This document shows, piece after piece, positions 2,126-32,000 of a stretch of 32,000 nucleotides of DNA. The stretch comes from Nitrososphaera viennensis EN76 (GTDB taxonomy: Archaea; Thermoproteota; Nitrososphaeria; Nitrososphaerales; Nitrososphaeraceae). The notes below the pieces were generated by a model, which saw nothing but the letters and a program-made list of their open reading frames with translations, was not told the origin of the DNA and ran no database searches. Positions within the stretch are counted from its first letter, which is position 1, and each line of letters opens with the position of its first letter. A program made the position numbers and the translations under genes. The stretch covers positions 60,001 through 92,000 of the forward strand of contig NZ_CP007536.1 of the NCBI RefSeq assembly GCF_000698785.1. Direction: 5' to 3'.

Positions 2126-2154
2126 ACCGTAGACGGTCTATAAAGCTTTTTTGC

Positions 2155-2571: not shown

Positions 2572-2599
2572 AGAAAACCTTTAGATAAAAAGTTGCTGG

Positions 2600-3382: not shown

Positions 3383-3399
3383 TATTTCAAATGCATCTC

Positions 3400-4255: not shown

Positions 4256-4294
4256 ATCTGGTAACCCGGGTTCAAATCCCGGCCGTCGCACCAT
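4256..4294. repeat. attR: displaced copy of the tRNA-Gly 3' half
   Basis: Exact 39-bp copy of 1814..1852 with no 5' tRNA half upstream of it. Confidence 0.88.
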
Positions 4295-4327
4295 CATTTT
4301 CATCATCCAAGCCGCAATCGACTTCTG

Positions 4328-4501: not shown

Positions 4502-4955
4502 CCTTCATTCCCCGCGCGACGCGGTTCTTGGCGTTTGTCTTGATTATTTCAAGTGCCTTTTCAGCCGCGTCTTTTTTTGGCAATTGGATCATGAAGATGT
4601 TCTGCGAGTTTGTGTACGTGGTCTCGCTCGGTCCCATCGCTATCATCCCGCTTTCCGCGAGCGCCTCGAACCACTCCAGCATGTCGTTTGCGTACAGCAA
4701 GAAATTCTCTTCAAAGTCCGTGTCTCTAAACTTGATGTTGACGTCGACAAACACGTCGCGCCCATCGTAAAAGATGTCCAATAGAGTATCAGCGGACACC
4801 CGCTTGCCGTAGACCTTGCCCAGCATCTCTTCGTATTTCTTGGGACTTACCAGTATGCAGGGCACCTTGCCGCCAGAGAACTCGACTAGCGTAGCTCCTT
4901 CCTTGTGCAGGTTGGCCTTGAATTCTTCAAGCGTAGTAAAGTTGCGCTTGGGCAC
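4494..4955 (-). CDS. hypothetical protein
   Basis: 153-aa ORF with a GTG start 20 nt downstream of a T-rich box. Apparently translationally coupled to the small Zn-ribbon ORF. Confidence 0.7.
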   Translation of the reverse strand: MPKRNFTTLEEFKANLHKEGATLVEFSGGKVPCILVSPKKYEEMLGKVYGKRVSADTLLDIFYDGRDVFVDVNIKFRDTDFEENFLLYANDMLEWFEALAESGMIAMGPSETTYTNSQNIFMIQLPKKDAAEKALEIIKTNAKNRVARGMKDG

Positions 4956-5193
4956 GCAGGTACCTTTGCAGGCACAAAATAAGAGCTTTGTTATGGCGAT
5001 AAACGGCCCAAGTTATCCAGTTTTTACGTCATTGGACGACGACGAAGCTCACTATAGAAAGTATGTGCGCATGCATTCTTTTTTGGAAAAGAGAGGAAAC
5101 GAAAAAAGCCAAGCAGATGCTTCCGCCGCGGTGTTTGGCTCCTATTCATCGTTATTCAGCGGCATGATGGAAATGTAAAAAGGTGGATTATAA

Positions 5194-5670
5194 TTAGTCG
5201 CGTTTGTCCCCTGTTGTTCTTTTCTTCTTTATTGCCCGCAGCTTCCTTATTCCAAAAATGGACGCTACAAACGCTATCCCTGAACCTGCCAGTATCTCCA
5301 CAACAAATGGGCTAAGCTCTGGCTGTGATGCTACGCTGCTAGATGATCCACACGGTGAGCCTACTGCTCCAAGGCAGCGGTGTTTCAATATTTCATTTTC
5401 AGAGCATTTTTCTGGCGATATGCCCAGCTCTTTGCATTCCTGAAGCATCTGCTGAGTTGGCGGAGATGGACTTTGGCTTGTCTGCGCGTATGCATGCTCG
5501 CTATTTGTGAAAAAGGCCAAAGAGGAAAACGACATGATGCCTGCCATTACTGCTGCAATAAAGCCCGCTGCAAGCCTTCTCCTTCTCTTTGCCAACAGCA
5601 GGAAATAGGAAATTCTTCTATTTTTCCTTTCAGACGTGCCTTCAAAAAAGCGGCACAAGTTTACGAACAA
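5194..5670 (-). CDS. small Cys-containing secreted protein with a C-terminal membrane anchor
   Basis: Signal-like KRRRRLAAGFIAAVMAGIMSFSSLAFF..AYA. The real start is probably TTG at 5595, 20 nt after aaaaatagaa. Six Cys in the mature part. C-terminal hydrophobic segment ILAGSGIAFVASIFGI followed by RKLRAIKKKR. Confidence 0.6.
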   Translation of the reverse strand: MFVNLCRFFEGTSERKNRRISYFLLLAKRRRRLAAGFIAAVMAGIMSFSSLAFFTNSEHAYAQTSQSPSPPTQQMLQECKELGISPEKCSENEILKHRCLGAVGSPCGSSSSVASQPELSPFVVEILAGSGIAFVASIFGIRKLRAIKKKRTTGDKRD

Positions 5671-5835
5671 AAAGGGGATTCCCTTTTTACTCCTTGTCGC
5701 TGAACTCGTTTGGATCCGACGGCCAAACCATTCTTTTTCCCCTATTTCCGGATGACAAACAGTTTTTGACAGAATTTAGGACCTACAAAATAATAGGAGT
5801 TTAGCGCCACGCGGGCGCGAAAAAAGCAGAGGAGT

Positions 5836-7464
5836 CTAGCAGATGCGTATGGACTTGGCCAGCATCAGGGCACGCTGCGAGTCGTCTTCCATCATCTCGT
5901 TGTTCTTGTACTTGTTGCTAAAGTAGATGAGGTCTATCATCTTGCAGCGGTCCATAGTCACGACTGCGCTCCCGTTGGTGCCTGCAGTCGTGTTGGCGTT
6001 TGTCAGTATCACCAGCTTGTCCACAAAGCCCGTCGTCTTTAGCGTGTTTGAGATCTGCTCAAAGCTCTTGGCGTGGTCGCGGTTTATCACGACTGTTATT
6101 GCCACCTTTGTGCCGTACGGGTCGGAGAACATGATGTCTACCCCGCTCCCGTTGCTCTTTTGCGGTTTTGCCACCGCGCCCACTTCGTGCGCATAGTTCA
6201 CGAGGTTGCGCACGGCGTCCTTTACTCCCGATTCGAGCACAGAGACGTCGCTTGTGCTCCTGCGGATCTTGATAAAGTCGGAAATCGGCACGTCCATGAC
6301 GCTCCCGCGTATGCGCAGGCCGGGGTAGACATTTTTGATAGTTTCATCAATGGCCTGCTCGTCTATTATCGGCGCCTCGCGCTTGCCGGCGTTTTCAGTG
6401 GCGTGGTACATTATGTTCAGCATCGAGCGCACGTTGCGAAAGTCCGGGAACTCGTCATAGATCACCTTCACCTTTGCCGCAAGGTCGCGCTCTTCGTCGT
6501 CGGTAAAGCACTTGCCTGCGTCGTGGAAGCGTATGTACTCCATGATGATGTCGAGGATCTCCTCGTAGGTGTTCGAGCCTGCAAGGTCGACCTTGTAGTT
6601 GGCCTTTTCCAGCCTGTCAAACACGGACGCATTTGCCTTGCTGATGTCGTCGTACGATGACGGGGTGAATATCAGCAGGAGCGCTGCCGCCGGCACGTGG
6701 GCGTTTATCACAGCCTTGACAAACTCGGTCGTCTCCCTGTCGGCGTCAAACTCGTCCAGCTGGAACACGGTCACGCGCCCAAGAAAGCGCAGGTTCAAAG
6801 ACGCAAGGGCCGCCAGGCTTGCGATGATGTCTTCAAGGGTCGAGACGTTTGCCGCGTCAGCCCTGAACTTGCCCTCCACCACCAGTTTCAGTATCGCGAC
6901 CTCGATTGGCGAAAACTCCCTGCTCAATGTCTCGGAAAGCGCGGAATAGTTGGGCACAAGCTCGTTGTTCAGCAAGAGCTCTGCCTTGTCTGACAGGCGC
7001 TTGCCGGTGATAGAGTCCATGAACCCATAGTTGAACACCTTGCGCGCAGTTGACGACTGCTCGGCCTTGGCAAGCAGGTGCTTGACAACAGCCCTGCGCA
7101 TCTGGGCGATGTACTCGTCGGTGAAGCCGCCCAGCATCGCAGAGTAGAGGCTGTGCATGTTGCGCGGGGATATCTGCGTCAGGTCGACGTACGATATCAC
7201 GGTCCTGTCCTCGACCTCCTTGAGCCCCTTTATGTGGAGCGCAAGGTGCGTCTTGCCTGAACCCACGTCCTGGATTATCGTGAGAAGCCTAAAGTCCTTG
7301 TCGGTGGCCTTGCCTTCGGCGACCTTGCCGTGCAGGTCGGAAAAGCACGCAAGCACAGCCGCCTTGGCCTCCTTGTGGCGCTTGCCTCCAAGGATCTTGG
7401 CGTCAATCAAAGTCGGGGTCGGGCTGCTTGGGTATGGGTTTCTGTCCAGCCTGTACGGATACAT
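5836..7464 (-). CDS. P-loop NTPase with an uncharacterised C-terminal domain
   Basis: 542-aa ORF. Walker A QDVGSGKTH, Walker B VTVFQLDEFD. The C-terminal roughly 110 aa (GSGVDIMFSDPYGTKVAITVVI...LVILTNAN) loosely resembles an Mrr-like nuclease core, but I see no clear catalytic Lys. Confidence 0.85.
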   Translation of the reverse strand: MYPYRLDRNPYPSSPTPTLIDAKILGGKRHKEAKAAVLACFSDLHGKVAEGKATDKDFRLLTIIQDVGSGKTHLALHIKGLKEVEDRTVISYVDLTQISPRNMHSLYSAMLGGFTDEYIAQMRRAVVKHLLAKAEQSSTARKVFNYGFMDSITGKRLSDKAELLLNNELVPNYSALSETLSREFSPIEVAILKLVVEGKFRADAANVSTLEDIIASLAALASLNLRFLGRVTVFQLDEFDADRETTEFVKAVINAHVPAAALLLIFTPSSYDDISKANASVFDRLEKANYKVDLAGSNTYEEILDIIMEYIRFHDAGKCFTDDEERDLAAKVKVIYDEFPDFRNVRSMLNIMYHATENAGKREAPIIDEQAIDETIKNVYPGLRIRGSVMDVPISDFIKIRRSTSDVSVLESGVKDAVRNLVNYAHEVGAVAKPQKSNGSGVDIMFSDPYGTKVAITVVINRDHAKSFEQISNTLKTTGFVDKLVILTNANTTAGTNGSAVVTMDRCKMIDLIYFSNKYKNNEMMEDDSQRALMLAKSIRIC

Positions 7465-18736: not shown

Positions 18737-18764
18737 TATTATTTAAATCTATCTTTAAATCTTA
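18737..18764 (-). promoter_or_regulatory. two-box promoter of 17542..18717
   Basis: Gene-sense AAGATTTAAAGATAGATTTAAATAATAA. AAATAATA ends 19 nt before the GTG start. Confidence 0.65.
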
Positions 18765-19955: not shown

Positions 19956-20528
19956 TTATGACAGAGTTATTGTCCAGGTGATTGTCAGTTGGTCGCCGCT
20001 TGCCAGGCTCACTGCAGTAAAGGTGTTCTCGGCCATCATTGTTCCGCCGGATGAAGCGGTGAAGAGGCCTGCCTTCTGGACGTTGGTGTGTGTTGCAGAT
20101 GCAGTGAATGTGTTGGAGACGGTGAATGTGTTGGTTCCAGAAGTATGTGCATATGTTCCGCTGGCCCTTGCAAGGCCACCAGAAGTGATCTCGCTTGCCA
20201 GTGTTGTATCAGTTGCGGCCGGGGCTGTGCCATCGGTTGTCAGTGCAATGTAGTGTGCGCCTTCTGATGCAAGGCCTGTTGATGCGCCGATCTGCTGTGC
20301 AATAAAGTCCTTGCCTGCGTTGGTGATCAGGTTGTGATCCTCGCTGTGGTAGATTTCCTGACCGTCCCTTGTCACGCTAACAACGACGTAACCGTGAGGA
20401 GTCAGGCCATCGGTGGTGACGTTTTGAGCTCCAACAAGAGCAGAACTGGGAATCACAAAGACCATCAGTGCGGCCAGTGCGATGCCAGGTACTGCACCCA
20501 TCAGGAGGCTCTTGTTTGGCTGTGCCAT
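19956..20528 (-). CDS. membrane-anchored/secreted beta-rich protein, paralogue A (TWTITLS family)
   Basis: 190-aa ORF. N-terminal hydrophobic segment. Shares NLI..AG, YIAL, T.L.SE.T.G, GG.M.A..TF and GD.LT.TWTITLS with 21184..21774. Confidence 0.75.
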   Translation of the reverse strand: MAQPNKSLLMGAVPGIALAALMVFVIPSSALVGAQNVTTDGLTPHGYVVVSVTRDGQEIYHSEDHNLITNAGKDFIAQQIGASTGLASEGAHYIALTTDGTAPAATDTTLASEITSGGLARASGTYAHTSGTNTFTVSNTFTASATHTNVQKAGLFTASSGGTMMAENTFTAVSLASGDQLTITWTITLS

Positions 20529-20546: not shown

Positions 20547-20573
20547 CTATTATTTAAATCTACTTTTAAATTA
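20547..20573 (-). promoter_or_regulatory. two-box promoter of 19956..20528
   Basis: Gene-sense TAATTTAAAAGTAGATTTAAATAATAG. AAATAATA ends 19 nt before the ATG. Confidence 0.65.
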
Positions 20574-21137: not shown

Positions 21138-21165
21138 GGAATTTAAATATAGATTTAAATAATAC
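21138..21165 (+). promoter_or_regulatory. two-box promoter of 21184..21774
   Basis: GGAATTTAAATATAGATTTAAATAATAC. AAATAATA ends 19 nt before the GTG start. Confidence 0.65.
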
Positions 21166-21183: not shown

Positions 21184-21774
21184 GTGAACCGCAGGCTTGT
21201 GCCTATTGTAGCGGCTGCCGGTATTTCAATGATTGTGATAGGGTTTGCCCTGCCGGCGATCGCAAGCATAGTCGCAGGCGGGCGGCAAGCGACAGAAGGT
21301 CTAGGCCTCCGGGGAAACGTGGACATGATCCTGTACGACCAGTCCGGAAACGTCAAGGACGAGCGCCACATCGACAACCTCATCGTAAGCGCCGGGGTGG
21401 AAGGCGTGGCCTCAAGAATCGCGCCACATGATGGCTCTGTAAACCCTACTGCGCCGTACAACTATATCGCGCTAGGCACAAGCAACACCGCAGTTGACGC
21501 AAGCCAGACTGCACTTTCTGCAGAGCTTACAACCGGTGCAAACTATGCGCGCATACAGGACGGAACAGCGATATACTCGACGGCGTCCGGCAACAAGCTC
21601 ATCCTTTCAGTGACGTTTGGGCCTGGGCAGGCCACGGGCACGCTGCGTGAAAGCGGCATCTTTAATTCTGCAACCGGCGGCAACATGCTTGCAAGGCAGA
21701 CCTTTGCAGACATTCAAAAGGCCGCCGGCGACACGCTGACGGTCACCTGGACTATTACGTTAAGCCCGACCTAG
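21184..21774 (+). CDS. membrane-anchored/secreted beta-rich protein, paralogue B (TWTITLS family)
   Basis: 196-aa ORF. N-terminal hydrophobic segment VPIVAAAGISMIVIGFALPAIASIV. The C-terminal TLTVTWTITLSPT matches paralogue A. Confidence 0.75.
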   Translation: MNRRLVPIVAAAGISMIVIGFALPAIASIVAGGRQATEGLGLRGNVDMILYDQSGNVKDERHIDNLIVSAGVEGVASRIAPHDGSVNPTAPYNYIALGTSNTAVDASQTALSAELTTGANYARIQDGTAIYSTASGNKLILSVTFGPGQATGTLRESGIFNSATGGNMLARQTFADIQKAAGDTLTVTWTITLSPT

Positions 21775-21993: not shown

Positions 21994-22020
21994 AGATTTA
22001 AACATACATTTAAATAATAA
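21994..22020 (+). promoter_or_regulatory. two-box promoter of 22039..26082
   Basis: AGATTTAAACATACATTTAAATAATAA. AAATAATA ends 19 nt before the GTG start. A third AAATTTAAG box lies at 21982-21990. Confidence 0.65.
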
Positions 22021-22038
22021 CTTCTATACGGAATACCC

Positions 22039-25000
22039 GTGACTATGGCCACGGCCGACGGTACAAGAAGAAGCTACGCCACAAAGACGGTATCCGTGAT
22101 GGTACTTGCAATTCTTGCAACTTCTGCATTTACTACAATAATTCCCGGTGCGGCTTTTGCCGTGACCGACCCGTCTGCGTCGATGAACCTGTGGTCGCCA
22201 CACTCTGACACGGGCAACGATGGCACCCCGACCAGCACGTTCACCTTCTCTGCTGACGCCACGGCAAGCGCAGGCCTGCAGAGGATAGAATGGGACTTTG
22301 ACGGCGACGGCGCCGCGGACACCACGACTCCGATTTCCGGCGCACCCAACCACGTCAATGGCGTGACTGCGACTCATATCTATGGCGACGAGAATGTTTT
22401 CTGGCCGCAGGTAAGATCCGTCGACATGAACAACGCTGTCTCTGACTGGAACAGGTACAGCGTTGGCGGAAGCGACGTTCCACTTGACGTTTTCTGGCCG
22501 CCGCCCATGATAACGATGCTTGCATGGCAGCCATTTACTGCAGACATTGGCACGCCAATTACATTTTCAGCTACTGCCTTTAACGAAGTGGGCGTGCAGC
22601 AATTCCACTGGGACTTTGACGGCGACGGAGAGGCAGATGATGCTACCCCTGCAGTGCCATTTGGTGCCCAGGATGCTTCTGGATCCATAACCCATACGTA
22701 CACTGGCGCAATCTCTGCATTTCCTGCTGTGAGGGCCCTTGACAACGACGGCTTTGTGTCCGAATGGGACGTGTACGACATCAACGGCCAGCCAGTCCAG
22801 ATAGTGATCGGGAGCTCTTCTGTGCCGACGGCAACCATGAACCAGTGGAATCCCTATTCAGCTTCTGGCTTTGACGGCCTTCCGAACACTTCGTTTACAT
22901 TTTCTGCGTCAGGCACTGGCGACGCTGGCATCGCCCGCGTCGAGTGGGACTTTAACGGCGACGGCGTCGTCGACGAGACGACTCCCATAAGCGGGTCTCC
23001 TACTTCTGTCAATGGCATAACCGCCACACACGTTTACAATAATGCTGGCCAATGGACGCCGCAGGTGAGGGTAGTAGATGTCAACAACCTTCCGTCTCCG
23101 TGGGCGGCCTTTATGGTGAGCGGGTCGCCAGTCAGCCTTGATACCTCCGCACCCATGATGAATCCTGTTCTGACCTTTTTGCCCCGCGCGCCTTCTGACA
23201 TTGGATCCGACGGCAACACTGCGACCGTCTTTACATTCACAACGACATTTAGCAACGTGCCTGTGAGCTTCAAGTGGGACTTTAACGGCGACGGTGTGAC
23301 CGACGCGACAACGACGCAGCCTACCGCAACTCACACCTATCCTGCCGCCGGCTCATACCTGCCGACCGTTACGGTGGTAGACGAGTGGGGAACAACAGAG
23401 CTGGCCTACCCGCTCAATTCTTCCGGCCAGTGGGAAGACGTGGATGTATCGCCGATGGCCCCGACCGCGACCATGAACCAGTGGAGCCCGTACAGCGCTT
23501 CAAGCGCCGACGGAGACAAGAACACCGTCTTTACGCTATCTGCAGACGCCACCGCGCCCGGCGGAATCGCCAGTCTTGAATGGGACTTTAACAGCGACGG
23601 AACCGTCGATATAACAACACCGGTCTCTGGCGCTCCGCAGTCCGTGACTGCCGTTACTGCGACGTACGTTTACGGCGCAGATGGAAATTACACTCCCAAG
23701 GTCAGGGCAGTGGACACGACAGGCCAGACCTCAGCGTGGGACGCTTACAACATTGCCCTCGTGACGCCCGTGCTTGATGTCGTGACGCCAGCGCCAGTAG
23801 CCACGATGAACCAGTGGTCGCCGTTTACGTCAACTGGACCCGACGGCTATACCACTACAACCTTTACACTTTCTGCCAACGCGACTTCCGTCGTCGGCAT
23901 CGACAGGCTCGAATGGGACTTTGACGGAAACGGCAGCGTGGACGCTACAACTGACTTTAATGGAGAAACTTCCGTATCAAGCGCAACCAAGACCCACGTC
24001 TACGGCGCGGTAGGAAGCTATACTCCAAAGGTGAGGACTGTCGACACTGACGGCCAATCCTCCGCATGGGACGCCTACAACTCGGGCTCGACAGTTCCGA
24101 CGCTTGACGTCGCTACCTCGCCTGCAAACAGCGCGCCTGTGGCAAACGCAGGCCCGGACCAGACGGTGGTCCTTGGAAGCACGGTGACGCTTGACGGCAC
24201 TGGAAGCAGCGACCCTGACTCTGGCGACACGCTGACATACACCTGGTCGCAGAACTCTGGCCCGATATCAGTCGCGCTAAACACTGCAAACCCTGCCAAG
24301 CCGACGTTTACGGCGACGCCCGCCGGAACGTACGTGTTTGAGCTGAAGGTCAAGGACAGCATTGGTGCACAGAGCACACCGGACACCATCGTGGTGACAG
24401 TCGTGAGCGCGCCCGTGGCCACGCTAGGCCAGTGGAGCCCGTACTCGGCGTCCGGCCCTGACGGCACATCTGCAACAGTCTTTACATTCTCGGCTAACGC
24501 TTCTGCCTCTGCAGGCATTGCGCGCCTTGAATGGGACTTTGACGGAAACGGCAGCGTGGACGCAACATCTGCGATAACCGGCGCTCCGACCACCGTAACC
24601 GGCGCAACCAAGACCTTTACTTACGGCGCCGACGGCACTTATACTCCAAAGGTGCGCGCGGTGGATGCGGGCAACAACTTGTCTGCATGGGACGCGTTCA
24701 ACTTGGGAAGCACGATAATCCAGCTTGACGTGGCAACACCGCAGCAGACAGGCGACCTGTACTGCAACGGCAAGACGATCGAGCAGCTGATCGCATCGCA
24801 CCAGTACAACGTGATTGACAAGAGGAACACTGGTGCCGTCAATATTTACGGGACAAGCGGAAACGACCTGATACTTGGCAACAACCTCTCTAACTACATC
24901 GACGGCAAGGGTGGCGACGACTGCATAATCGCCTTTGGAGGCGACGACACAGTTTATGACTATAACGGCGACAGCAGCAACGGCGGCACGGACTGGCTCT

Positions 25001-26082
25001 ACGGTGGCGATGGCAACGACAAGCTGTACGCCCTTAATGGCGATGACTATGTCTATGGCGGAAACGGCAACGACTACATACAGGGCGACGACGGCAACGA
25101 CAAGCTGTATGGCGAAGCCGGCGACGACACCATCGAAGACTCGCGCGGAAACGACCTCTCTGACGGAGGGCCAGGCACGGACAAGTGCACAGACACCAAG
25201 GGTACCAACACGATAATCAACTGCGAGCTGGGACAGCCGCCGGTCGCAACCCTGAACCAGTGGAGCCCGTACAGCGCATCTGGCGCCGACGGCACGCCAA
25301 CCACCGCGTTCTCGTTCTCTGCTAGCGCCACATCCGTCACAGGAATTGCCAAGTTCGAGTGGGACTTTAAGGGCGATGGGACTGTGGACGCTACGACGCC
25401 AGTGACAGGCTCGCCAGCGTCTGCCACTGCTACTGCCACTTTCACCTATAACGCGGCAGGAACATGGACTCCGCAGGTGAGGGCAGTCGATACCTACAAC
25501 CAGGTCTCCGCCTGGGACGCGTTCAACTCGGGGAGCACGATAATCAAGCTTGATACTGCCAATCCTCAGCCTTCCGGCGACCTCTACTGCAACGGCAAGA
25601 CTATTGACCAGTTGATAGCAAGCGGCCAGTACAACGTGATTGACAACAGGAACGGCCAGAGAAAGACGCTCAACGGCTCCAACGGCAACGACTTGATACT
25701 TGCAAGCAAGTATGGCGACGTGATAAACGCCAAGAAGGGCAACGACTGCGTCATCGGCGGCGCAGGCGACGACATCATCCACGGCCACCAAGGCGACGAC
25801 CAGATCTACGGCAATGGCGGCAACGACAGGATCTTTGGCGACAGCGGCGATGACAAGCTCTATGGCGGCGCAGGAAACGACGTCATCTATGGCGACAACG
25901 GCAACGACGTCATAAACGGCGGCGCAGGAAACGACGACATTAGCGGCGGAAACGGCAATAATACGATCGATGGCAGCGACGGAAACGACGGGTGCGACGA
26001 TGACCGCGGCCGCAGCAACATGCGCAACATAGAAAGGAACTACCGCAACGACCATCGCGACGACGACCACGGCAATGACTAG
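22039..26082 (+). CDS. giant secreted PKD-repeat / RTX (GGxGxD) calcium-binding-repeat protein
   Basis: 1347-aa ORF. Signal peptide ending AAFA. Eight EWDF.GDG.VD-type PKD-like modules. One ANAGPDQTV...LDGTGSSDPD..LTYTWSQ PKD-like module. Two Cys-bracketed blocks of GGDGNDKLYG-type nonapeptide repeats. Confidence 0.9.
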   Translation: MTMATADGTRRSYATKTVSVMVLAILATSAFTTIIPGAAFAVTDPSASMNLWSPHSDTGNDGTPTSTFTFSADATASAGLQRIEWDFDGDGAADTTTPISGAPNHVNGVTATHIYGDENVFWPQVRSVDMNNAVSDWNRYSVGGSDVPLDVFWPPPMITMLAWQPFTADIGTPITFSATAFNEVGVQQFHWDFDGDGEADDATPAVPFGAQDASGSITHTYTGAISAFPAVRALDNDGFVSEWDVYDINGQPVQIVIGSSSVPTATMNQWNPYSASGFDGLPNTSFTFSASGTGDAGIARVEWDFNGDGVVDETTPISGSPTSVNGITATHVYNNAGQWTPQVRVVDVNNLPSPWAAFMVSGSPVSLDTSAPMMNPVLTFLPRAPSDIGSDGNTATVFTFTTTFSNVPVSFKWDFNGDGVTDATTTQPTATHTYPAAGSYLPTVTVVDEWGTTELAYPLNSSGQWEDVDVSPMAPTATMNQWSPYSASSADGDKNTVFTLSADATAPGGIASLEWDFNSDGTVDITTPVSGAPQSVTAVTATYVYGADGNYTPKVRAVDTTGQTSAWDAYNIALVTPVLDVVTPAPVATMNQWSPFTSTGPDGYTTTTFTLSANATSVVGIDRLEWDFDGNGSVDATTDFNGETSVSSATKTHVYGAVGSYTPKVRTVDTDGQSSAWDAYNSGSTVPTLDVATSPANSAPVANAGPDQTVVLGSTVTLDGTGSSDPDSGDTLTYTWSQNSGPISVALNTANPAKPTFTATPAGTYVFELKVKDSIGAQSTPDTIVVTVVSAPVATLGQWSPYSASGPDGTSATVFTFSANASASAGIARLEWDFDGNGSVDATSAITGAPTTVTGATKTFTYGADGTYTPKVRAVDAGNNLSAWDAFNLGSTIIQLDVATPQQTGDLYCNGKTIEQLIASHQYNVIDKRNTGAVNIYGTSGNDLILGNNLSNYIDGKGGDDCIIAFGGDDTVYDYNGDSSNGGTDWLYGGDGNDKLYALNGDDYVYGGNGNDYIQGDDGNDKLYGEAGDDTIEDSRGNDLSDGGPGTDKCTDTKGTNTIINCELGQPPVATLNQWSPYSASGADGTPTTAFSFSASATSVTGIAKFEWDFKGDGTVDATTPVTGSPASATATATFTYNAAGTWTPQVRAVDTYNQVSAWDAFNSGSTIIKLDTANPQPSGDLYCNGKTIDQLIASGQYNVIDNRNGQRKTLNGSNGNDLILASKYGDVINAKKGNDCVIGGAGDDIIHGHQGDDQIYGNGGNDRIFGDSGDDKLYGGAGNDVIYGDNGNDVINGGAGNDDISGGNGNNTIDGSDGNDGCDDDRGRSNMRNIERNYRNDHRDDDHGND
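22171..24116 (+). repeat. six tandem PKD-like coding modules, about 100-112 aa each
   Basis: Modules start near 22171, 22505, 22830, 23160, 23464 and 23800. Most open with ATMNQWSPY-like strands and contain (E/K/H)WDF.GDG. Confidence 0.8.
24406..26082 (+). repeat. tandem duplication of a [PKD + Cys-bracketed RTX] supermodule, about 830-nt period
   Basis: PVATLGQWSPYSASG... at 24414 and PVATLNQWSPYSASG... at 25244. GDLYCNGKTI(E/D)QLIAS.QYNVID at 24751 and 25576. The same supermodule ends the next gene (from about 27380). Confidence 0.85.
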
Positions 26083-26302: not shown

Positions 26303-28171
26303 ATGTCACTGGCGCTTTGCATAACGACCGCCCTTACGCTCCTCTTTTCTATCCTTGCTATCCTGCCGTCGCAGGTGGTGACGGCGGCTTCCGGCCCTAC
26401 TGTGTCGATGAAAATATGGTCTCCCGGCCCGGGCGTGATAAGCGTGGGCACTCCAGTCACTTTCCGGGCGACCGGCGCAGACGACATTGCCGTGCAGGGA
26501 TTCCAGTGGGACTTTGACGGCGACGGGGAGGCCGACGCCTACTCGCCTGCCGACTCGCCGGGCAGGTCTGCGTCAGGGTCCATAGCGCGCACGTTTTCTG
26601 TGCCCATGACTAGCTATCCCGCAGTGAGGACAGTCGACAATGAAGGGTTTGTTTCAGAATGGGACGTTTACGACGTAAACGGCTCGCCGGTCCAGCTCGT
26701 GATAGGGAGCTCTGCGCCTCCCAAGGTGACGATGAACCGGTGGAGCCCGTACTCTACAGCAGGACCCGACGGCTCGCCGGCTACTCAATTTACGCTCTCT
26801 GCAAGCGCGTCGTCGGATGAGGGGCTGGCAAAACTGGAATGGGACTTTGACGGCGACGGCAAGGCCGATGCAACATCGGAGGTCTCTGGCAAGGCAATTG
26901 CCTCGGCCACGATTGCCCATGTGTACGGCTCTCCCGGCTCGTGGGTTCCAAGGGTAAGGGCAGTCGACGTAAACGGCCTGCCGTCGCTATGGGCTGCGTA
27001 CACTGCCGGGGCAAAACAGGCGACAACAGCAATAACACTGGACGTGGCGATTTCCGAGCTTGCGGCCACCCTGAAATTCTCTCAGGTGGGCGCGCCGGCA
27101 AGCACTGGCGCGAACGGCGCGCCTTCCGCAACGTACGCGTTTAGCGCAACTTCAAGCGCAAACGCAACAAGCTATGAATGGGACTTTGACGGCGACGGCA
27201 AGATCGACGCGACCACCAGCACTCCGGCGACCCAGCATACCTACAGAAAATATGGGCTGTTCCTGCCCACGGTAACTGTCAAGGACGCGTTTGGCACGCG
27301 CGCACTTGCGCTGCCCCTCGATGCAAATGGCAAGCCGGCGTACATTGGCGTGCTCGGCGAGGCGCCAGTTGCACGCATGGGCCAGTGGTCTCCATTCTCT
27401 GCAAAAGACCCCGACGGCCAGGCTAACACTGTATTTGTGTTCTCTGCACGCGCGTCAGCGCAGGGCGGCGTGCAAAAGTTCGAGTGGGACTTTGACGGAG
27501 ACGGCACGGTTGACGCGACCACCACTATCGAGGGCGCGCCAACATCTGCAACTGCGTCTGCAACCCATACTTTTGGCAAGGAAGGAAGCTATACTCCAAA
27601 GGTGAGGGCAGTGGACGCGACAAACCAGGTATCGTCTTGGGCTTCTTACGGTGGCGCTGTCCAGCTTGACATAACATCCGGCCAACCCGCGCAGCCAGCA
27701 ACAGAGAAACCCTCGGCAGAAAAATATTGCGATGGCATGACGATCGAGCAATTGATGGCAAGCGGCAAGTACCACGTTGTCGACAAGAGAAACTCGGTCC
27801 AAAAGACAATATTTGGGACGACCGGCGCGGACCTGATAATCGGCTCTGGCGTACAAAACGCGATATACGGCCGGGGTGGCAATGACTGCATAATTACGGG
27901 CGGCGGAAACGACTATGTCTTTGGTAACGAAGGCAACGACATAATTTTCGGCAGCGATGAAAGCGACACTATAGACGGCGGGCCTGGCGATGACCTGATT
28001 TATGGCATGGCCGGCGACGACAGCATCAAAGCAGGTGCAGGCAATGACAAGGTAAACGGCGGTCTTGGCAACGACACGATCGACGGCGGCGCGGGCAGCG
28101 ACTGGTGCTATGGCGGAGGAGGCGGCAACGACAAAGCTGTCAACTGCGAAACTTCCACGCCGTTTGACTGA
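26303..28171 (+). CDS. secreted PKD-repeat / RTX-repeat protein, paralogue of 22039..26082
   Basis: Track ORF 26165..28171. The likely start is ATG 26303 (MSLALCITTALTLLFSILAILPSQVVTAAS signal). Five PKD-like modules, then KYCDGMTIEQLMASGKYHVVDKRN and GGxGxD repeats ending in NCE. Confidence 0.88.
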   Translation: MSLALCITTALTLLFSILAILPSQVVTAASGPTVSMKIWSPGPGVISVGTPVTFRATGADDIAVQGFQWDFDGDGEADAYSPADSPGRSASGSIARTFSVPMTSYPAVRTVDNEGFVSEWDVYDVNGSPVQLVIGSSAPPKVTMNRWSPYSTAGPDGSPATQFTLSASASSDEGLAKLEWDFDGDGKADATSEVSGKAIASATIAHVYGSPGSWVPRVRAVDVNGLPSLWAAYTAGAKQATTAITLDVAISELAATLKFSQVGAPASTGANGAPSATYAFSATSSANATSYEWDFDGDGKIDATTSTPATQHTYRKYGLFLPTVTVKDAFGTRALALPLDANGKPAYIGVLGEAPVARMGQWSPFSAKDPDGQANTVFVFSARASAQGGVQKFEWDFDGDGTVDATTTIEGAPTSATASATHTFGKEGSYTPKVRAVDATNQVSSWASYGGAVQLDITSGQPAQPATEKPSAEKYCDGMTIEQLMASGKYHVVDKRNSVQKTIFGTTGADLIIGSGVQNAIYGRGGNDCIITGGGNDYVFGNEGNDIIFGSDESDTIDGGPGDDLIYGMAGDDSIKAGAGNDKVNGGLGNDTIDGGAGSDWCYGGGGGNDKAVNCETSTPFD

Positions 28172-28272: not shown

Positions 28273-28299
28273 AGATTTAAACATAAATTTAAATAATAA
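28273..28299 (+). promoter_or_regulatory. two-box promoter of the open-ended giant ORF
   Basis: AGATTTAAACATAAATTTAAATAATAA, differing at 1 of 27 positions from the 21994 box. AAATAATA ends 20 nt before GTG 28319. Confidence 0.65.
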
Positions 28300-28318
28300 G
28301 GCACTATAACCCTATAGC

Positions 28319-31300
28319 GTGTCGGAGAGAGCCCTTGGAGGCTACTATCATAGTATGCCTTTCCCTAGGTCTCTCTCCGGCGGCATGAAGGACAGGTCGC
28401 TACTCCTTTTCTGTGGCCTGGCAGCCGCTGCGGCGCTGTTTCTGACCGTGTCAAACACGGGTCAGGCTTTTGCAGAGCTCTCTCCAACACACCTGCAAGA
28501 CGCCGCCGCAAGTGCTACTGCTGTCGACCACGCGCCACGCGCTTTCTCTAGGAGCATCGGCGACTCGGTCTCGGTGGCAAGCAACTTTGACAACCTGGGG
28601 GCGAGAATCCCGCGCGTATTCAACGTAGGGATCTCTGACGGCCTCAACATCGCGACCTCGCCAACGCCGCCTCCGCCCAGCAGCGCCGCTACTAATACTA
28701 CAACAACTGCAAGGCCGTCGACAGGCTTGCAGCAAGGGATGGGAAGGGCAGAAGAAAAGCTGGGCCCCCGCAACCCGATTGAAAGTAAGGGCGACCCGAC
28801 GAGCAAGGACCCGAAGGACAGTTCGGTGCAGGAGCAGCCGCAGGGCTCTATCTCGCAGGAACTGGAATCAGTGCTTTCAACTCTGATGCAGGACCTGCTG
28901 GGATCTGACGATTCCGAGCCGGACGATAGTAGTAGTTCCAACAATACTGCTGCGGTACAGGTCCCTCCGACCATCTACATTGACTCGCTCTATGGAGCAT
29001 ACGCCATGGCCATCATCGTAATCTCGGTTGGCAAGTCACCACGCGTTGCAAGAGTTAGGAGGCAGATCGTGGCACTTTACGCACTCGAGTCGCCAGAGGA
29101 CAAACAGCGCGACGCGGAAATGCCAATGTATGCAAGGGTTGCAATCATTGTCATCGTGATTGTGGCGGCAGTCGCGATGGCGTCTGCAGTAGAACCTGTG
29201 ATGGGCGAGGCATTTGCCGATACGAACAAGGCTGCAATCGTATACATCGAAGGTTCAACACCAAAGTATAGAGAATGGATACCTTCAGCTGGAGGTGGTG
29301 GTTCCTGGAGCAGTCCGGTGTCACTAACTGCAGCAGACACTACACTCAACACGGCAAAGATAGAGTTCAGCCCTGTATCGTCAAAGAGAGTGATCGTAAC
29401 AATGGATAACAATGGCAACCTCGATTCGTACGTCTGTTCCATTGGATGTACGGATGCAAGCAGCTGGACCTTCACCAACAACTTTGTGGATGTAACAGCT
29501 TCAACGGTCACTGCTTCCTATAGGCCGTGGGACATCGAATACGAGCATACAAGTGGCGACCTTATGATAGTTTACGACTATCCAGAAAGTGGGTCAAGTG
29601 CTACAGACGATCTATTCTACAGGATCATGACTAACTCACAAACATCCTTTGGCTCTGAATCTTCTATCAACGATTCTGGCAACTCTGCAACCGCCGGACT
29701 CTATTCCTTTGTGGCCATGGATTCGCAAAAGACATCTGGATCTGATGAAATGGCGCTCATTGCAGTTGACGCCACTGCTTCAGACGCGTCTGCTATCGTC
29801 TGGAACGGAAACAATTGGACAACTCTGCCACAAACAGAACTCAGTACAAGCGTTAGCATCGCTACAGAAGAAGCAGTAGCAATAGCATACGAGACAAACT
29901 CGGGTGACATTTTGGTGGTAGCAGGTGAAGGCTCTAACATTAGGTACAATACATTTTCCAACACCTCGAATACTTGGGGGACAAGTTCTACGTCGGCTGG
30001 AACTTGGGCTGTTGGTACCATAAATTGGGTTAGGCTCGTCCCTGACCCACGTAGTACTTCAAACGCGATATTTCTAGCAGGCTCAGGATCTTCTAACGAC
30101 CTTGATTCTGCATACTGGAGCGGAAGCGCATGGACCGATCACGCTGAGCACGATGCGGGAATCTCTGGTAACGCAGCACGCGTCTTTGACTTTGCATGGG
30201 ATGGCAGCAGCTCTAACGGCGTACTTGCGTGGTCCACGGCTTCAAACAGCATATCATTTACAAGAGGAGATCCGTCGTCTGGAACATTCGGCACCGATGG
30301 CACATTCACCGTAGATGCAGACGCTTCTACTACTTCGTGGATTAGACTTGCCTCCAATCCAACTACTGCTGATACAGTTGCAGCCTTGGGTCTTGAAGAC
30401 GATGGCAATAGTGACATTGGTGGCATCCGGTGGGACGGAAGTACAAATGCTCCTGTTTCAACTGGAACCGATGACATTTCGACTACTTCGACCAATAACA
30501 GTTGGGAGCCATTCAGCATAGACTTTCAAAAGGTGGTAGCAATAGCAACAAAGAACATTTCAGATACCATTGCGACAAGCCCTAGCATCGTCGCGGCCAA
30601 GTTCAAGGTAGCATCCATACCCCAAACCATAACAATAACTCCAACAATAGTCAAGAAAGTCACGCGCTCGCTTCCAAACACAGTAACAGTAAGTGATTCT
30701 ATTGCAAGGTCGGTCACCGTAACGCCTGACACCACCCCGGCGGCCATGGCTTACAGGTCTGACGACGGAACCAACGGAAGCAGCTCGCCCAAGTACAGAG
30801 AGTGGAACCCGACGACAAAGACGTGGGGCTCGCAGGTAGAGCTTGAAAGCGCGGGCAGCCCCATACGCAACGCCTGGATAGAGTTCAGCCCTGTGTCGAC
30901 CAAGCGCGTGATAATCGTGCTGAGCGAAGACGGCACGCTAGACTCGTACGCCTGCGACTTTGGCTGCACCATTCCGAGCAGCTGGACAGTCACGCACGAC
31001 ATCGTGGACCTGTGGAACGTCGTCACGCCTGCCGCGCAAAAGCGCCCGTTTGACATCGAGTTTGAAAAGACAAGCGGCGACCTGATGCTAGTTTATGACA
31101 AGGAGGACGGAGGCGACCCTGCCACCGACCTGTTCTACAGGATAATGCCCGACTCTAGCCACACGTTTGGAAGCGAGAGCGTCATTGACGACACTGACAC
31201 TGCCGCTCCTGACAACGTGTACAGTTTCATCCGCCTCGACTCTAGGAGGACCCCCGGCTCTAACGACCTTGGCTTGGTGGCAGAATCAGAGACCAACCAC

Positions 31301-32000
31301 CGCGCAGTGGCCTGGTACTGGAACGGCTCCACTGACACGTTTGGCAACATGATCACACTCACGACATCTGTTTCCACCGACGTCGACTATGAGGGAGTCG
31401 GCATAGGCTTTGAAACAAGCACAGGCGACCTCGTCGCTGTGGCCGCGGAAGGCGCAAACGTGGTGTACGCGCAGTTCAGCGGCGGCTCGTGGAGTACGCC
31501 GGCAAACGTCGGGACGCTCAACGTGAGCACTGTAAGGTGGGTGCGGTTTGTGCCAAACCCCAACGCCGGCACTGACGGCATACAGCTTGTCGTGAGCGGC
31601 TACACCGGCAGCGCGCACCAGCTCAACAGCGCGTACTGGAACGCAACAGGATGGAAGATTCACGCCGGCGAGACCCGGCACGACGCCTCAATCGACGATT
31701 CTGCGACCAGAGTGTTTGACTTTGCATGGGACAACGCCGGCGACGCGACTAGGGGCATACTGGTGTGGGGAAACGGCAACAACAACATGGTGTTCAAGAG
31801 GTACACTGTGCCTGACACGTGGACAACGATAGACTTTGGCGCCGGCGCCATCAGCGACGACGGCACGCACCCGTGGGTCTCGCTCAACGAGCACGGCAAC
31901 CCGATATCTGCCGACGCGGTGTCAGTGCTCGGAGCCGCGATCGACAACGGCGCAGACATAGGTCAGCTCCGCTGGGATGGAAGTGCCAGCAGTGTGGCTT
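28319..32000 (+). CDS. giant secreted/membrane protein with tandem beta-propeller-like modules (5' partial; continues past the window end)
   Basis: Not in the supplied track. A stop (taa) at 28307-28309 opens the frame. I translated the frame (codon starts congruent to 2 mod 3) line by line to 32000 and met no stop, giving at least 1227 codons. Candidate starts are GTG 28319, ATG 28355 and ATG 28385 (MKDRSLLLFCGLAAAAALFLTVSNTGQAFA). All minus-strand track ORFs here look like shadows. Confidence 0.82.
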   Translation, partial: MSERALGGYYHSMPFPRSLSGGMKDRSLLLFCGLAAAAALFLTVSNTGQAFAELSPTHLQDAAASATAVDHAPRAFSRSIGDSVSVASNFDNLGARIPRVFNVGISDGLNIATSPTPPPPSSAATNTTTTARPSTGLQQGMGRAEEKLGPRNPIESKGDPTSKDPKDSSVQEQPQGSISQELESVLSTLMQDLLGSDDSEPDDSSSSNNTAAVQVPPTIYIDSLYGAYAMAIIVISVGKSPRVARVRRQIVALYALESPEDKQRDAEMPMYARVAIIVIVIVAAVAMASAVEPVMGEAFADTNKAAIVYIEGSTPKYREWIPSAGGGGSWSSPVSLTAADTTLNTAKIEFSPVSSKRVIVTMDNNGNLDSYVCSIGCTDASSWTFTNNFVDVTASTVTASYRPWDIEYEHTSGDLMIVYDYPESGSSATDDLFYRIMTNSQTSFGSESSINDSGNSATAGLYSFVAMDSQKTSGSDEMALIAVDATASDASAIVWNGNNWTTLPQTELSTSVSIATEEAVAIAYETNSGDILVVAGEGSNIRYNTFSNTSNTWGTSSTSAGTWAVGTINWVRLVPDPRSTSNAIFLAGSGSSNDLDSAYWSGSAWTDHAEHDAGISGNAARVFDFAWDGSSSNGVLAWSTASNSISFTRGDPSSGTFGTDGTFTVDADASTTSWIRLASNPTTADTVAALGLEDDGNSDIGGIRWDGSTNAPVSTGTDDISTTSTNNSWEPFSIDFQKVVAIATKNISDTIATSPSIVAAKFKVASIPQTITITPTIVKKVTRSLPNTVTVSDSIARSVTVTPDTTPAAMAYRSDDGTNGSSSPKYREWNPTTKTWGSQVELESAGSPIRNAWIEFSPVSTKRVIIVLSEDGTLDSYACDFGCTIPSSWTVTHDIVDLWNVVTPAAQKRPFDIEFEKTSGDLMLVYDKEDGGDPATDLFYRIMPDSSHTFGSESVIDDTDTAAPDNVYSFIRLDSRRTPGSNDLGLVAESETNHRAVAWYWNGSTDTFGNMITLTTSVSTDVDYEGVGIGFETSTGDLVAVAAEGANVVYAQFSGGSWSTPANVGTLNVSTVRWVRFVPNPNAGTDGIQLVVSGYTGSAHQLNSAYWNATGWKIHAGETRHDASIDDSATRVFDFAWDNAGDATRGILVWGNGNNNMVFKRYTVPDTWTTIDFGAGAISDDGTHPWVSLNEHGNPISADAVSVLGAAIDNGADIGQLRWDGSASSVA
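29231..32000 (+). repeat. tandem 503-aa-period coding modules (propeller-like unit + TV/I-rich linker)
   Basis: Unit 1 spans 29231-30532 and unit 2 starts at 30740. Collinear matches include PKYREW, IEFSPVS.KRVI, LDSY.C..GC...SSWT, RP.DIE.E.TSGDLM.VYD, DLFYRIM, FGSES.I.D, RVFDFAWD and (I/L)RWDGS. Confidence 0.8.

What the first reader, a model, noticed from the sequence alone, without database searches (positions are those of the whole stretch)
28319..32000. Large ORF missing from the supplied ORF track, with two signal-peptide-like segments in one frame
The plus-strand frame opening at 28310 has no stop through 32000, by manual codon-by-codon check. The track probably skipped it because it never terminates inside the window. 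The track instead lists only antisense and alternate-frame shadows.

The frame contains a canonical signal peptide (MKDRSLLLFCGLAAAAALFLTVSNTGQAFA, ATG 28385). A roughly 230-aa low-complexity Pro/Ser/acidic region follows. A second signal-like segment then appears (MPMYARVAIIVIVIVAAVAMASAVEPVMGEAFA, ATG 29120) with the same AFA ending. This could reflect a fused gene pair that lost a stop, an internal start, or an unusual two-pass topology.
Basis: seen in the sequence. Interest (0 to 1): 0.7.

Follow-up and report, generated by a model that had tools for sequence, protein, structure and literature searches.

The report
Giant archaeal surface protein, double-signal leader
The open frame is the real start of a roughly 4,000-residue cell-surface protein of a soil ammonia-oxidising archaeon (Nitrososphaera), and its two signal-peptide-like segments belong to a conserved N-terminal leader that probably threads the membrane three times and may be cut twice, which nobody has described.

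Summary
The + frame from GTG 28319 has no stop to 32000, while the other five frames have 21-66 stops. On the source contig the gene is called as one 4,037-aa product.

The layout is:
- signal peptide 1, ending AFA|E
- a ~170-aa exposed region under purifying selection
- a stop-transfer helix
- a basic cytoplasmic loop
- a second signal-type helix, ending AFA|D
- the passenger: β-propeller modules, then an 18-aa-repeat stalk

This leader is conserved in one ORF in about 16 relatives, all giant Nitrososphaera "hypothetical proteins", including N. evergladensis NTE_01437. It sits in front of different passenger domains. So it is not an accidental stop loss, and an internal start is not conserved.

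Two natural variants are informative. One lineage has an in-frame TAA that splits the leader's exposed part into its own gene. One homologue has only the second segment, as an ordinary N-terminal signal peptide.

The best reading is a three-pass pre-pro leader whose third helix acts as an internal signal peptide, probably cleaved by signal peptidase I. Cleavage is inferred, not shown. I rate it a new variant of a known kind, of moderate interest.

The parts
28274..28298 (+). Shared archaeal promoter element GATTTAAACATAAATTTAAATAATA. It has tandem ATTTAAA boxes, and the second contains the TATA-like TTTAAATA at 28288-28295.
   Evidence: It occurs 5 times in the window with 0 expected by chance. 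Each copy ends 20-21 nt before the first codon of a secreted-protein ORF. It is conserved upstream of the orthologues in L009 and L013.
28319..28396 (+). Probable start codon GTG 28319 and a long n-region (residues 1-26, VSERALGGYYHSMPFPRSLSGGMKDR). The mRNA is likely leaderless.
   Evidence: An in-frame TAA lies at 28307-28309. V/M-SERA..G is conserved, with ATG in P0005/P0008/P0026 and GTG in L013/L014. The promoter spacing is constant. Gene callers used ATG 28385.
28397..28474 (+). Signal peptide 1: h-region SLLLFCGLAAAAALFLTV plus c-region SNTGQAFA. The predicted signal-peptidase site is A52|E53 (28474/28475).
   Evidence: Hydropathy and charge analysis. [A/V][F/Y/W]A sits at this boundary in 15/15 family members. 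The same motif ends the N-terminal signal peptides of neighbouring secreted proteins.
28475..28984 (+). Exposed leader region (residues 53-222). It holds two stalk-type repeat units (28547-28582 SRSIGDSVSVAS; 28613-28657 RVFNVGISDGLNIAT), a conserved GRAEEKLGPR, a predicted amphipathic helix (28859-28900, from a low-confidence model) and the acidic cluster DDSEPDD (28907-28927).
   Evidence: Purifying selection in this frame: pN 0.235 vs pS 0.725 against L009, and ω 0.13 in L010 vs L007. Invariant columns are listed. A stalk-unit HMM hits this region in 14/14 leaders, while about 1% of shuffles reach 5 bits.
28985..29032 (+). Middle hydrophobic segment (TM2, SLYGAYAMAIIVISVG), a predicted stop-transfer helix running out-to-in.
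   Evidence: Across the family, the 15 residues upstream hold 0 K/R (one member has 1). The 15 residues downstream hold 3-5 K/R in most members and 2 in P0014. The AF2 model, though low in confidence, shows a helix at residues 218-238.
29033..29137 (+). Basic loop (KSPRVARVRRQ...RDAEMPMYAR), predicted to be cytoplasmic. It contains ATG 29120.
   Evidence: Positive-inside charge pattern. R248 is invariant. The Met at 29120 is not conserved outside the window and P0007. No promoter-like or SD-like element lies upstream.
29138..29218 (+). Second signal-type segment (TM3): h-region VAIIVIVIVAAVAMASAV plus c-region EPVMGEAFA. The predicted internal signal-peptidase site is A300|D301 (29218/29219).
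   Evidence: This is the strongest hydrophobic peak (KD 3.3), with K/R upstream and 0-1 downstream. [A/V][F/Y/W]A lies at the boundary in 12/18 members, with 5 near-variants, against 1/17 at TM2 and 0/11 at the C-terminal anchor. It aligns with the genuine N-terminal signal peptide of P0003.
29219..30532 (+). Passenger module 1: a ~438-aa β-propeller ('KYREW' module).
   Evidence: 44% identical to module 2, E 2e-102. No Pfam or NCBIfam hit. AF2 model pLDDT 78, pTM 0.86, all-β. Best PDB matches are 7-bladed Photorhabdus PLL/PHL lectins, fucose lectins and sialidases.
30533..30727 (+). Inter-module linker with stalk-like short repeats (…ISDTIATSPSIVAAKFKVASIPQTITITPTIVKKVTRSLPNTVTVSDSIARSVTVTP).
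   Evidence: Translation.
30728..32000 (+). Passenger module 2 (β-propeller), cut by the window end. On the source contig the gene continues with a third module and more than 1,400 aa of 18-aa SRSxSDSxxVxDxI repeats. The stop is predicted at window-equivalent 40496-40498.
   Evidence: 4,037-aa gene call from ATG 28385; 3,262 codons read on L001 without a stop; repeat unit, spacing 18.

Best explanation
This is the 5' third of one very large gene, about 4,059 codons from GTG 28319. It encodes an adhesin-like fibre on the cell surface of a Nitrososphaera archaeon.

The protein is made with a conserved ~300-residue tripartite leader. The proposed sequence of events is:
1. Signal peptide 1 opens Sec translocation and is probably removed after AFA52.
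2. About 170 residues are exported. They include two copies of the same 18-aa unit that builds the stalk, plus an acidic cluster.
3. A short helix followed by five Arg/Lys stops transfer.
4. A ~35-residue basic loop stays in the cytoplasm.
5. A third, very hydrophobic helix re-initiates translocation of the ~3,700-residue passenger: three lectin-like β-propellers, then a long 18-aa-repeat stalk. In complete homologues a conserved C-terminal region and membrane anchor follow.
6. The third helix has the n-h-c layout of a signal peptide and ends in the local signal-peptidase motif exactly where the passenger begins. It therefore most likely works as an internal signal peptide and is cut after AFA300. 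That would leave a small hairpin-anchored leader protein and a separate giant fibre held by its own C-terminal anchor.

Shown: the ORF, its conservation, purifying selection, the charge and hydropathy pattern, the motifs, the natural split and leader-free variants, and the propeller fold.

Inferred: the topology, both cleavages, and any interaction between the leader's repeat units and the stalk.

The confidence given (0.6) is for the full statement including cleavage at the internal site. Confidence that this is one real gene with a conserved three-helix leader is above 0.9.
For: - ORF and gene call.
- The start at GTG 28319 is supported by a promoter element shared by five genes with constant 20-21 nt spacing and by conserved N-terminal residues.
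- An exhaustive profile search of 1.84 billion representatives finds only 17 relatives. Every full-length one has the whole leader at the extreme N-terminus of a 1,400-3,200-aa protein.
- Two more genomic loci are fused in one frame.
- The passengers after the third helix differ (propeller, 'TYVGAGTA' domain, others), while the leader and the boundary motif are kept.
- P0004 is the positional orthologue by synteny.
- Purifying selection acts on every leader segment.
- Charge bias: in nearly all members there is no K/R before TM2 and 3-5 after it, then 2-5 before TM3 and 0-1 after it.
- [A/V][F/Y/W]A at the boundary: SP1 15/15, TM3 12/18 plus 5 near-variants, TM2 1/17, C-terminal anchor 0/11.
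- The same AFA/AYA ends the true N-terminal signal peptides of three neighbouring secreted proteins, and it is the only such tripeptide in each of them.
- P0003 uses the TM3-equivalent as its ordinary N-terminal signal peptide, followed by the same mature N-terminus AFA|D(S/T)N.AAIAY.
- A natural in-frame split (CAG to TAA, with a new ATG three codons later) appears in independent assemblies, and both halves stay under purifying selection. The two parts can therefore work as separate polypeptides.
- Stalk-type units occur in 14/14 leaders.
Against: - No experimental or predictor-based evidence for cleavage is available. SignalP and DeepTMHMM could not be run.
- The simple -3/-1 rule does not discriminate in these Ala-rich sequences.
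- Three members (P0005, P0008, P0009) have weaker boundary motifs (TYA|T, SAA|G, AEA|A).
- Both h-regions are 18-20 residues long, which is also compatible with uncleaved transmembrane helices.
- TM2 is short and only moderately hydrophobic (KD about 1.9). It falls below threshold in P0004, P0005 and P0015.
- The natural split lies before TM2, not at the proposed cleavage site. It does not mimic the proposed processing, and it shows the exposed part need not be membrane-tethered.
- The AF2 model of the leader is uninformative (pLDDT 42).
- The C-terminus of the window's own protein was not seen. The anchor is inferred from homologues.
Confidence: 0.6

Rival explanations
1. Same gene and same three-helix topology, but the helices are not cleaved, or only the first is. 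The giant protein would then be a polytopic membrane protein, stapled to the membrane at its N-terminus by the hairpin and at its C-terminus by the anchor, with a ~3,700-residue extracellular loop or arch.
For: The h-regions are 18-20 residues long, which is transmembrane-like. Some members have weak boundary motifs. The topology parity (in-out-in-out-in) works without any cleavage. The C-terminal anchor and the positive tail are conserved.
Against: A signal-peptidase-type c-region is conserved (P/G breaker, then [A/V][F/Y/W]A) exactly at the passenger boundary. It is identical to proven N-terminal signal peptides nearby and to P0003's real signal peptide. Such conservation is hard to explain if the site is never used.
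Confidence: 0.27
2. Internal initiation. The mRNA also, or mainly, yields a shorter protein starting at ATG 29120/29126, so the second segment is simply the N-terminal signal peptide of that product. The upstream 267 codons would then be a separate or regulatory reading frame.
For: The window and its closest relative P0007 have Met-Pro-Met immediately before the helix. P0003 shows that this signal peptide can work at a true N-terminus.
Against: The Met is absent in P0001, P0004, P0005, P0011-P0014, P0021 and P0022. No TATA-like box occurs anywhere in 28299-32000, and no SD-like element lies near 29120. The upstream frame is continuous and under purifying selection in all relatives.
Confidence: 0.06
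3. Artefact or decay. Two adjacent genes appear fused because of an assembly or sequencing error or a recent stop-codon loss, and the upstream part is non-functional.
For: One related lineage does have the upstream part as a separate gene. The upstream region is compositionally simple.
Against: The identical fused sequence is found on several independent assemblies of the same organism. The fusion is conserved in about 16 divergent relatives and two genomic contexts. Purifying selection acts on it. The one split lies at a different position from where two such genes would abut.
Confidence: 0.02

Closest known systems
Fibrillar or giant surface adhesins of bacteria and archaea: signal peptide, adhesive head domains, long repeat stalk, cell anchor (overview of the bacterial class: PMC8286594)
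   Same: Overall plan: N-terminal secretion signal, ligand-binding-type head modules (here lectin-like β-propellers), a very long stalk of short tandem repeats, and a C-terminal membrane anchor in homologues. The neighbours are other secreted repeat proteins (PKD/RTX, DUF11).
   Different: No known adhesin, stalk or anchor domain family matches. The leader is tripartite, with a second signal-type helix. Anchoring is by a C-terminal transmembrane helix, not by a sortase, archaeosortase or T1SS retention module.
Polyproteins processed by signal peptidase at internal signal peptides. Viral glycoprotein precursors such as bunyavirus Gn/Gc are one example (PMC5113920). From my own knowledge, the Bradyrhizobium japonicum fbcH cytochrome b/c1 precursor is another (Thöny-Meyer et al. 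1991); I could not retrieve that paper here.
   Same: Stop-transfer helix, cytoplasmic loop, then an internal signal-type helix ending in a small-x-small site exactly at the start of the next exported domain. One ORF would yield two membrane-associated products in 1:1 ratio.
   Different: Cleavage is not demonstrated here. The upstream product is a small leader with an exposed repeat/acidic region, not an enzyme subunit or glycoprotein. The context is an archaeal giant surface fibre.
Extended or atypical signal peptides of very large secreted proteins: ESPR of autotransporters and TPS proteins, YSIRK, KxYKxGKxW, and the accessory-Sec signal of serine-rich repeat adhesins (from my own knowledge)
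   Same: Unusually long, conserved N-terminal targeting regions attached specifically to giant repetitive surface proteins. Here the n-region is 26 residues and the leader is conserved.
   Different: Those are single n-h-c signals with extensions. None contains an exported 170-residue region followed by a membrane hairpin. There is no sequence similarity.
Ca. Nitrososphaera evergladensis SR1 NTE_01437 (AIF83501.1 / WP_148700261.1), 'hypothetical protein', 3,221 aa
   Same: Closest complete relative. Its leader is 80% identical, and it shares the propeller modules, the stalk and the C-terminal region.
   Different: It has a different number and order of propeller modules and is shorter. It is unannotated, so it supplies no functional knowledge.

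Membership tests
Sec-type (class 1) signal peptide cleaved by signal peptidase I - first segment (28319-28474) | Positively charged n-region, hydrophobic h-region, polar c-region with small residues at -3/-1, located at the N-terminus | tested here: met
   K/R in the n-region, an 18-residue h-region and the c-region SNTGQAFA|E. [A/V][F/Y/W]A is conserved in 15/15 members. The same motif ends the neighbours' signal peptides.
Sec-type signal peptide - first segment | Actual cleavage by signal peptidase | not testable with these tools
   This needs N-terminal proteomics. No SignalP-type predictor was available.
Internal (non-N-terminal) signal peptide cleaved by signal peptidase - second segment (29120-29218) | n-h-c organisation preceded by a cytoplasmic, positively charged stretch and followed by an exported domain | tested here: met
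   2-5 K/R upstream and 0-1 downstream. KD peak 2.6-3.4. A P/G breaker followed by AFA|D lies at the passenger boundary. It aligns with the true N-terminal signal peptide of P0003.
Internal signal peptide cleaved by signal peptidase - second segment | A preceding stop-transfer helix that returns the chain to the cytoplasm | tested here: met
   TM2 (28985-29032) has no K/R upstream in nearly all members and 3-5 K/R downstream in most. It is only moderately hydrophobic and falls below threshold in three members, so support is good but not absolute.
Internal signal peptide cleaved by signal peptidase - second segment | Demonstrated processing into two polypeptides | not testable with these tools
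   There is only indirect support: a natural split variant and conservation of the site motif.
Fibrillar/giant adhesin | Secretion signal, head (binding) domain(s), long tandem-repeat stalk and a cell anchor | tested here: met
   Signal peptide (above). β-propeller modules with lectin-like fold matches. At least 46 units of an 18-aa repeat. A C-terminal TM anchor in complete homologues. The window protein's own C-terminus was not seen.
Fibrillar/giant adhesin | Demonstrated binding or adhesion function | not testable with these tools
   Fold similarity to lectins is at about 11% identity. No binding-site analysis was done.
Archaeosortase substrates (PGF-CTERM / PEFG-CTERM) - considered for the middle helix plus basic cluster | Tripartite sorting signal (signature motif, TM helix, basic tail) at the extreme C-terminus of the protein | tested here: not met
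   The helix plus K/R cluster is internal and is followed by more than 3,700 residues in frame. There is no PGF or PEFG motif, and NCBIfam gave no hit.
Known Pfam/NCBIfam domain families (any) | A profile match above the curated threshold | tested here: not met
   No families matched the window protein, P0007 or P0004. Only sub-threshold noise appeared.

The most novel reading that the evidence does not exclude
An archaeal 'polyprotein'. One ORF is cut by signal peptidase at an internal signal peptide into (i) a small hairpin-anchored leader protein displaying stalk-type repeat units and an acidic patch and (ii) a ~3,700-residue fibre. The leader's repeat units then dock onto or nucleate the fibre's 18-aa-repeat stalk. 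That would be a dedicated co-translational biogenesis and anchoring device for giant surface fibres, previously unknown in prokaryotes.
Probability: 0.3. Interest if true: 0.75.

Novelty: new variant of a known kind. Interest (0 to 1): 0.55.

Why it matters
Internal signal peptides cleaved by signal peptidase are textbook for viral and some eukaryotic precursors but are very rare in prokaryotes. A conserved example in archaea would be a natural system for studying how cells start, stop and restart translocation of a 4,000-residue chain, and how giant fibres are anchored without sortase-like machinery.

The protein belongs to an unannotated, genus-restricted family in soil ammonia oxidisers. 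Its lectin-like propellers and long stalk suggest a role in attachment to soil particles, polysaccharides or other cells, which bears on how these nitrifiers colonise soil.

In practice, gene callers truncate the start (ATG 28385 instead of GTG 28319), and window-based ORF tracks miss the gene altogether. The shared 25-nt promoter element defines a small surface-protein regulon that could be tested directly.

Tried and rejected
- A word-indexed homology search with the leader alone found nothing, because low-complexity words filled the candidate list. The search with P0007's C-terminal region did not return the window's own protein. So the window protein's last ~800 residues and its stop codon were never read directly.
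- The search for related loci rejected alignments A1 and A4 for lack of a conserved stretch.
- Two metagenome scans found no relatives.
- The AF2 model of the leader was uninformative (pLDDT 42).
- A plain -3/-1 scan did not discriminate, because it also hit TM2 and the C-terminal anchors. I replaced it with the specific boundary motif and internal controls.
- Pfam and NCBIfam gave no families. The only hit, GltJ at E about 1e-3 against a 450-bit cut-off, is compositional noise.
- Literature searches found no description of this family, and I could not retrieve the Bradyrhizobium fbcH paper.
- I considered an archaeosortase-type C-terminal signal for the middle helix and rejected it, because the helix is internal.
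- I considered the antisense ORF 28462-28974 (170 aa) as a real gene and rejected it, because selection acts on the + frame.


Full report
**1. The observation**

Translating the + strand from 28310 to 32000 gives 1,230 codons without a stop. From GTG 28319 there are 0 stops in 1,227 codons. The other five frames of the same stretch have 21-66 stops, and their longest open run is 170 codons. From base composition, the chance of such an open frame is about 1e-22. An in-frame TAA lies at 28307-28309.

The ORF lister leaves out ORFs that run off the source, and it returned only short antisense and alternate-frame ORFs here. Both quoted segments are present at ATG 28385 and ATG 29120.

**2. Source and extent of the gene**

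The complete neighbouring gene (26303-28168) occurs on 17 public contigs. The longest locus retrieved, L001 (ENA ERZ1760268 NODE_40, 133 kb), carries this gene called from the position equal to window 28385, as a 4,037-aa product. I read 3,262 codons of it on L001 without a stop. The stop should lie at window-equivalent 40496-40498, but I did not read it myself.

After the leader the protein has:
- three ~430-aa modules (modules 1 and 2 are 44% identical, E 2e-102)
- more than 1,400 residues of an 18-aa repeat, SRS[LIV][SA]D[ST][VLI]x[VLI]xD[AS][IV]xxxx (46 units extracted, modal spacing 18)

**3. The true start**

A 25-nt element, GATTTAAACATANATTTAAATAATA, occurs five times in the window, with 0 expected in 100 shuffles. 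Each copy ends 20-21 nt before the first codon of a secreted-protein ORF: 18717(-), 20528(-), 21184(+), 22039(+) and 28319(+). It is also present upstream of the orthologues in L009 and L013.

The residues encoded from 28319 (VSERALGGY..MPFPRSLS) are conserved in relatives. Some of those relatives start with ATG at that position (P0005, P0008, P0026) and others with GTG (L013, L014).

I conclude that translation starts at GTG 28319 on a probably leaderless mRNA. ATG 28385, which the gene callers used, is 22 codons too late.

**4. Anatomy of the first 300 residues (coordinates)**

| Residues | Window coordinates | Feature |
|---|---|---|
| 1-26 | 28319-28396 | n-region |
| 27-44 | 28397-28450 | h-region SLLLFCGLAAAAALFLTV |
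| 45-52 | 28451-28474 | c-region SNTGQAFA, site A52/E53 |
| 53-222 | 28475-28984 | exposed region |
| 239-273 | 29033-29137 | basic loop, starting KSPRVARVRRQ |
| 274-291 | 29138-29191 | h-region VAIIVIVIVAAVAMASAV |
| 292-300 | 29192-29218 | c-region EPVMGEAFA, site A300/D301 |

The first propeller module begins at D301 (29219).

**5. Relatives**

The first homology search found six proteins, all from Nitrososphaera or metagenomes. A profile of the leader, searched exhaustively against 1.84 billion representatives, found only 17 proteins (13 at E ≤ 1e-10). Every full-length hit carries the whole leader at the extreme N-terminus of a 1,400-3,200-aa protein.

One hit is NTE_01437 of Ca. Nitrososphaera evergladensis SR1, annotated "hypothetical protein". 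Its leader is 80% identical to the window's. A scan of reference genomes added two loci, a Nitrososphaera MAG and Ca. Nitrososphaera sp. FF02, and both are fused in one frame.

The loci fall into two syntenic contexts:
- Type A: window, L009 and L012.
- Type B: L010, L011 and L007.

P0004 in L009 is the positional orthologue. It has the same leader but a different first passenger domain. No Pfam or NCBIfam family matches any part of these proteins.

**6. Is the upstream part really coding?**

Yes, the upstream part is coding.
- Window vs L009, exposed region: pN 0.235 vs pS 0.725.
- Window vs L012, exposed region: pN 0.272 vs pS 0.611.
- L010 vs L007: ω is 0.13 for the exposed region, 0.23 for the hairpin, 0.05 for the propeller and 0.32 for the rest.

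dS is saturated in the more distant pairs, so these values show the direction of selection rather than precise rates.

**7. Topology signals**

Nearly all family members have no K/R in the 15 residues before the middle helix (one member has 1). Most have 3-5 K/R in the 15 residues after it. The third helix has 2-5 K/R before it and 0-1 after it. This is the positive-inside pattern of a hairpin with a cytoplasmic loop. With signal peptide 1 in front and a C-terminal anchor plus basic tail in complete homologues, the parity is consistent.

The middle helix is short and only moderately hydrophobic. It falls below my threshold in three members (P0004, P0005, P0015).

**8. Cleavage-site signals**

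A plain -3/-1 scan is useless here, because it also hits the controls. The specific pattern is [A/V][F/Y/W]A sitting right at the conserved domain boundary and preceded by a P/G breaker. It is found as follows:

| Position | Members with the motif |
|---|---|
| Signal peptide 1 | 15/15 |
| Third helix | 12/18, plus five near-variants (TYA, AYG, AIA, AAA, AEA) |
| Middle helix | 1/17 |
| C-terminal anchor | 0/11 |

(Counts read.)

As an internal control, the true N-terminal signal peptides of neighbouring secreted proteins end the same way: PKD/RTX GAAFA|V, DUF11 SFAFA|D and a 158-aa protein HAYA|Q. In each of those proteins it is the only such tripeptide. No signal-peptide predictor was available, so cleavage remains an inference.

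**9. Two natural variants**

*Split variant.* In L007, the type-B orthologue has an in-frame TAA where L010 has CAG, and an ATG follows three codons later. Gene callers there make a 171-aa gene plus a 1,734-aa gene. The same split occurs in an independent run, SRR30094844, so it is not a read error. Both halves remain under purifying selection. The split lies before the middle helix, not at the proposed cleavage site.

*Leader-free variant.* In L008, the homologue P0003 has stops upstream and starts with a single ordinary signal peptide. That peptide aligns with the window's third helix and is followed by the same mature N-terminus, AFA|D(S/T)N.AAIAY.

Together these show three things. The third helix is equivalent to a working signal peptide. 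The exposed leader part can exist as its own polypeptide. The fused state is nevertheless the norm.

**10. Rivals**

- *Internal start.* The Met at 29120 exists only in the window and NTE_01437. The only TATA-like box between 28150 and 32000 is the one at 28288, and nothing SD-like lies near 29120. This rival is weak.
- *Recent stop loss or assembly artefact.* This is excluded by the conservation and selection data.
- *Uncleaved polytopic protein.* This remains a serious rival, because helix lengths of 18-20 residues fit transmembrane spans and some boundary motifs are weak.

**11. What the protein is**

The repeated module is predicted with pLDDT 78 and pTM 0.86 as an all-β structure. Its best PDB matches are 7-bladed Photorhabdus PLL/PHL lectins, fungal fucose lectins and sialidase propellers, with TM-scores of 0.55-0.69 at about 11% identity. 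That supports a β-propeller with a possible sugar-binding role, not membership of those families.

With the long repeat stalk and the C-terminal anchor seen in homologues, the protein has the plan of a giant fibrillar adhesin.

An HMM of the stalk unit hits the leader's exposed region at the same place in 14/14 members, at 5-12 bits. Only about 1% of 700 shuffled leaders reach 5 bits. The leader therefore carries one to three stalk-type units. This suggests the leader associates with the stalk, or nucleates it, but it does not show that.

**12. Verdict**

The finding is a conserved, undescribed tripartite leader on an unannotated, genus-restricted family of giant archaeal surface proteins. The leader has a probable internal signal peptide.

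I rate it a new variant of a known kind, with interest 0.55. The architecture is solid and unusual for a prokaryote. The key mechanistic step, cleavage, is untested, and the family is small.

Noticed in passing
window 18737-18761(-), 20548-20572(-), 21140-21164(+), 21995-22019(+), 28274-28298(+): A shared 25-nt promoter element (tandem ATTTAAA boxes) lies 20-21 nt upstream of five secreted-protein genes: DUF11/CLIPPER, two Gp80-like genes, PKD/RTX and the giant gene. This suggests leaderless mRNAs and a common surface-protein regulon. The element is conserved in related genomes (L009, L013, L014).
   Followed up: partly
window 19956-20528(-), 21184-21774(+); L008 5370-5945; L009 2653-3240: Small (~190-aa) proteins with an N-terminal hydrophobic segment give a weak match to PF23140 (podophage fibre protein Gp80). 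They are syntenic with the giant genes in several genomes and sit directly upstream of the leader-free homologue P0003. Their function is unknown. They could be partner or fibre subunits.
   Followed up: no
window 1774-1851 and ~2000-6000: tRNA-Gly(GCC) is immediately followed by a low-GC stretch (0.41-0.48, against 0.55-0.60 elsewhere). The stretch holds orphan minus-strand ORFs with no Pfam match, and a 542-aa ORF (5836-7464) lies just beyond it. This may be an integrated element at a tRNA. I did not look for an integrase.
   Followed up: no
window 22039-26082 and 26303-28171: Two adjacent PKD-repeat proteins have C-terminal RTX calcium-binding repeats. The first contains two near-duplicate 'dockerin-like' blocks (…LYCNGKTI[ED]QLIAS.QYNVID.RN…). 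The second lacks the shared promoter element and may be co-transcribed with the first.
   Followed up: no
L014 10001-11740 (Ca. Nitrososphaera sp. FF02; P0026): The leader-bearing gene in this genome is only 579 aa, on a 641-kb contig, and ends abruptly (…ARRRGCYL). It may be a truncated or frameshifted copy of a giant gene.
   Followed up: no
P0007, P0008, P0012, P0014, P0021 C-termini (homologues; not in the window): After the C-terminal anchor, some family members carry an extra ~150-aa domain that resembles the CARDB-like domain just before the anchor. They also have a second weakly hydrophobic Gly/Ala-rich stretch, so the C-terminal topology of those members is unclear.
   Followed up: no
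P0006 (NCBI, 1,467 aa): A more distant protein (28% identity) carries two copies of the same propeller module followed by FN3 domains, behind a simple N-terminal signal. The module therefore exists outside the leader-bearing family. I did not determine the source organism.
   Followed up: no
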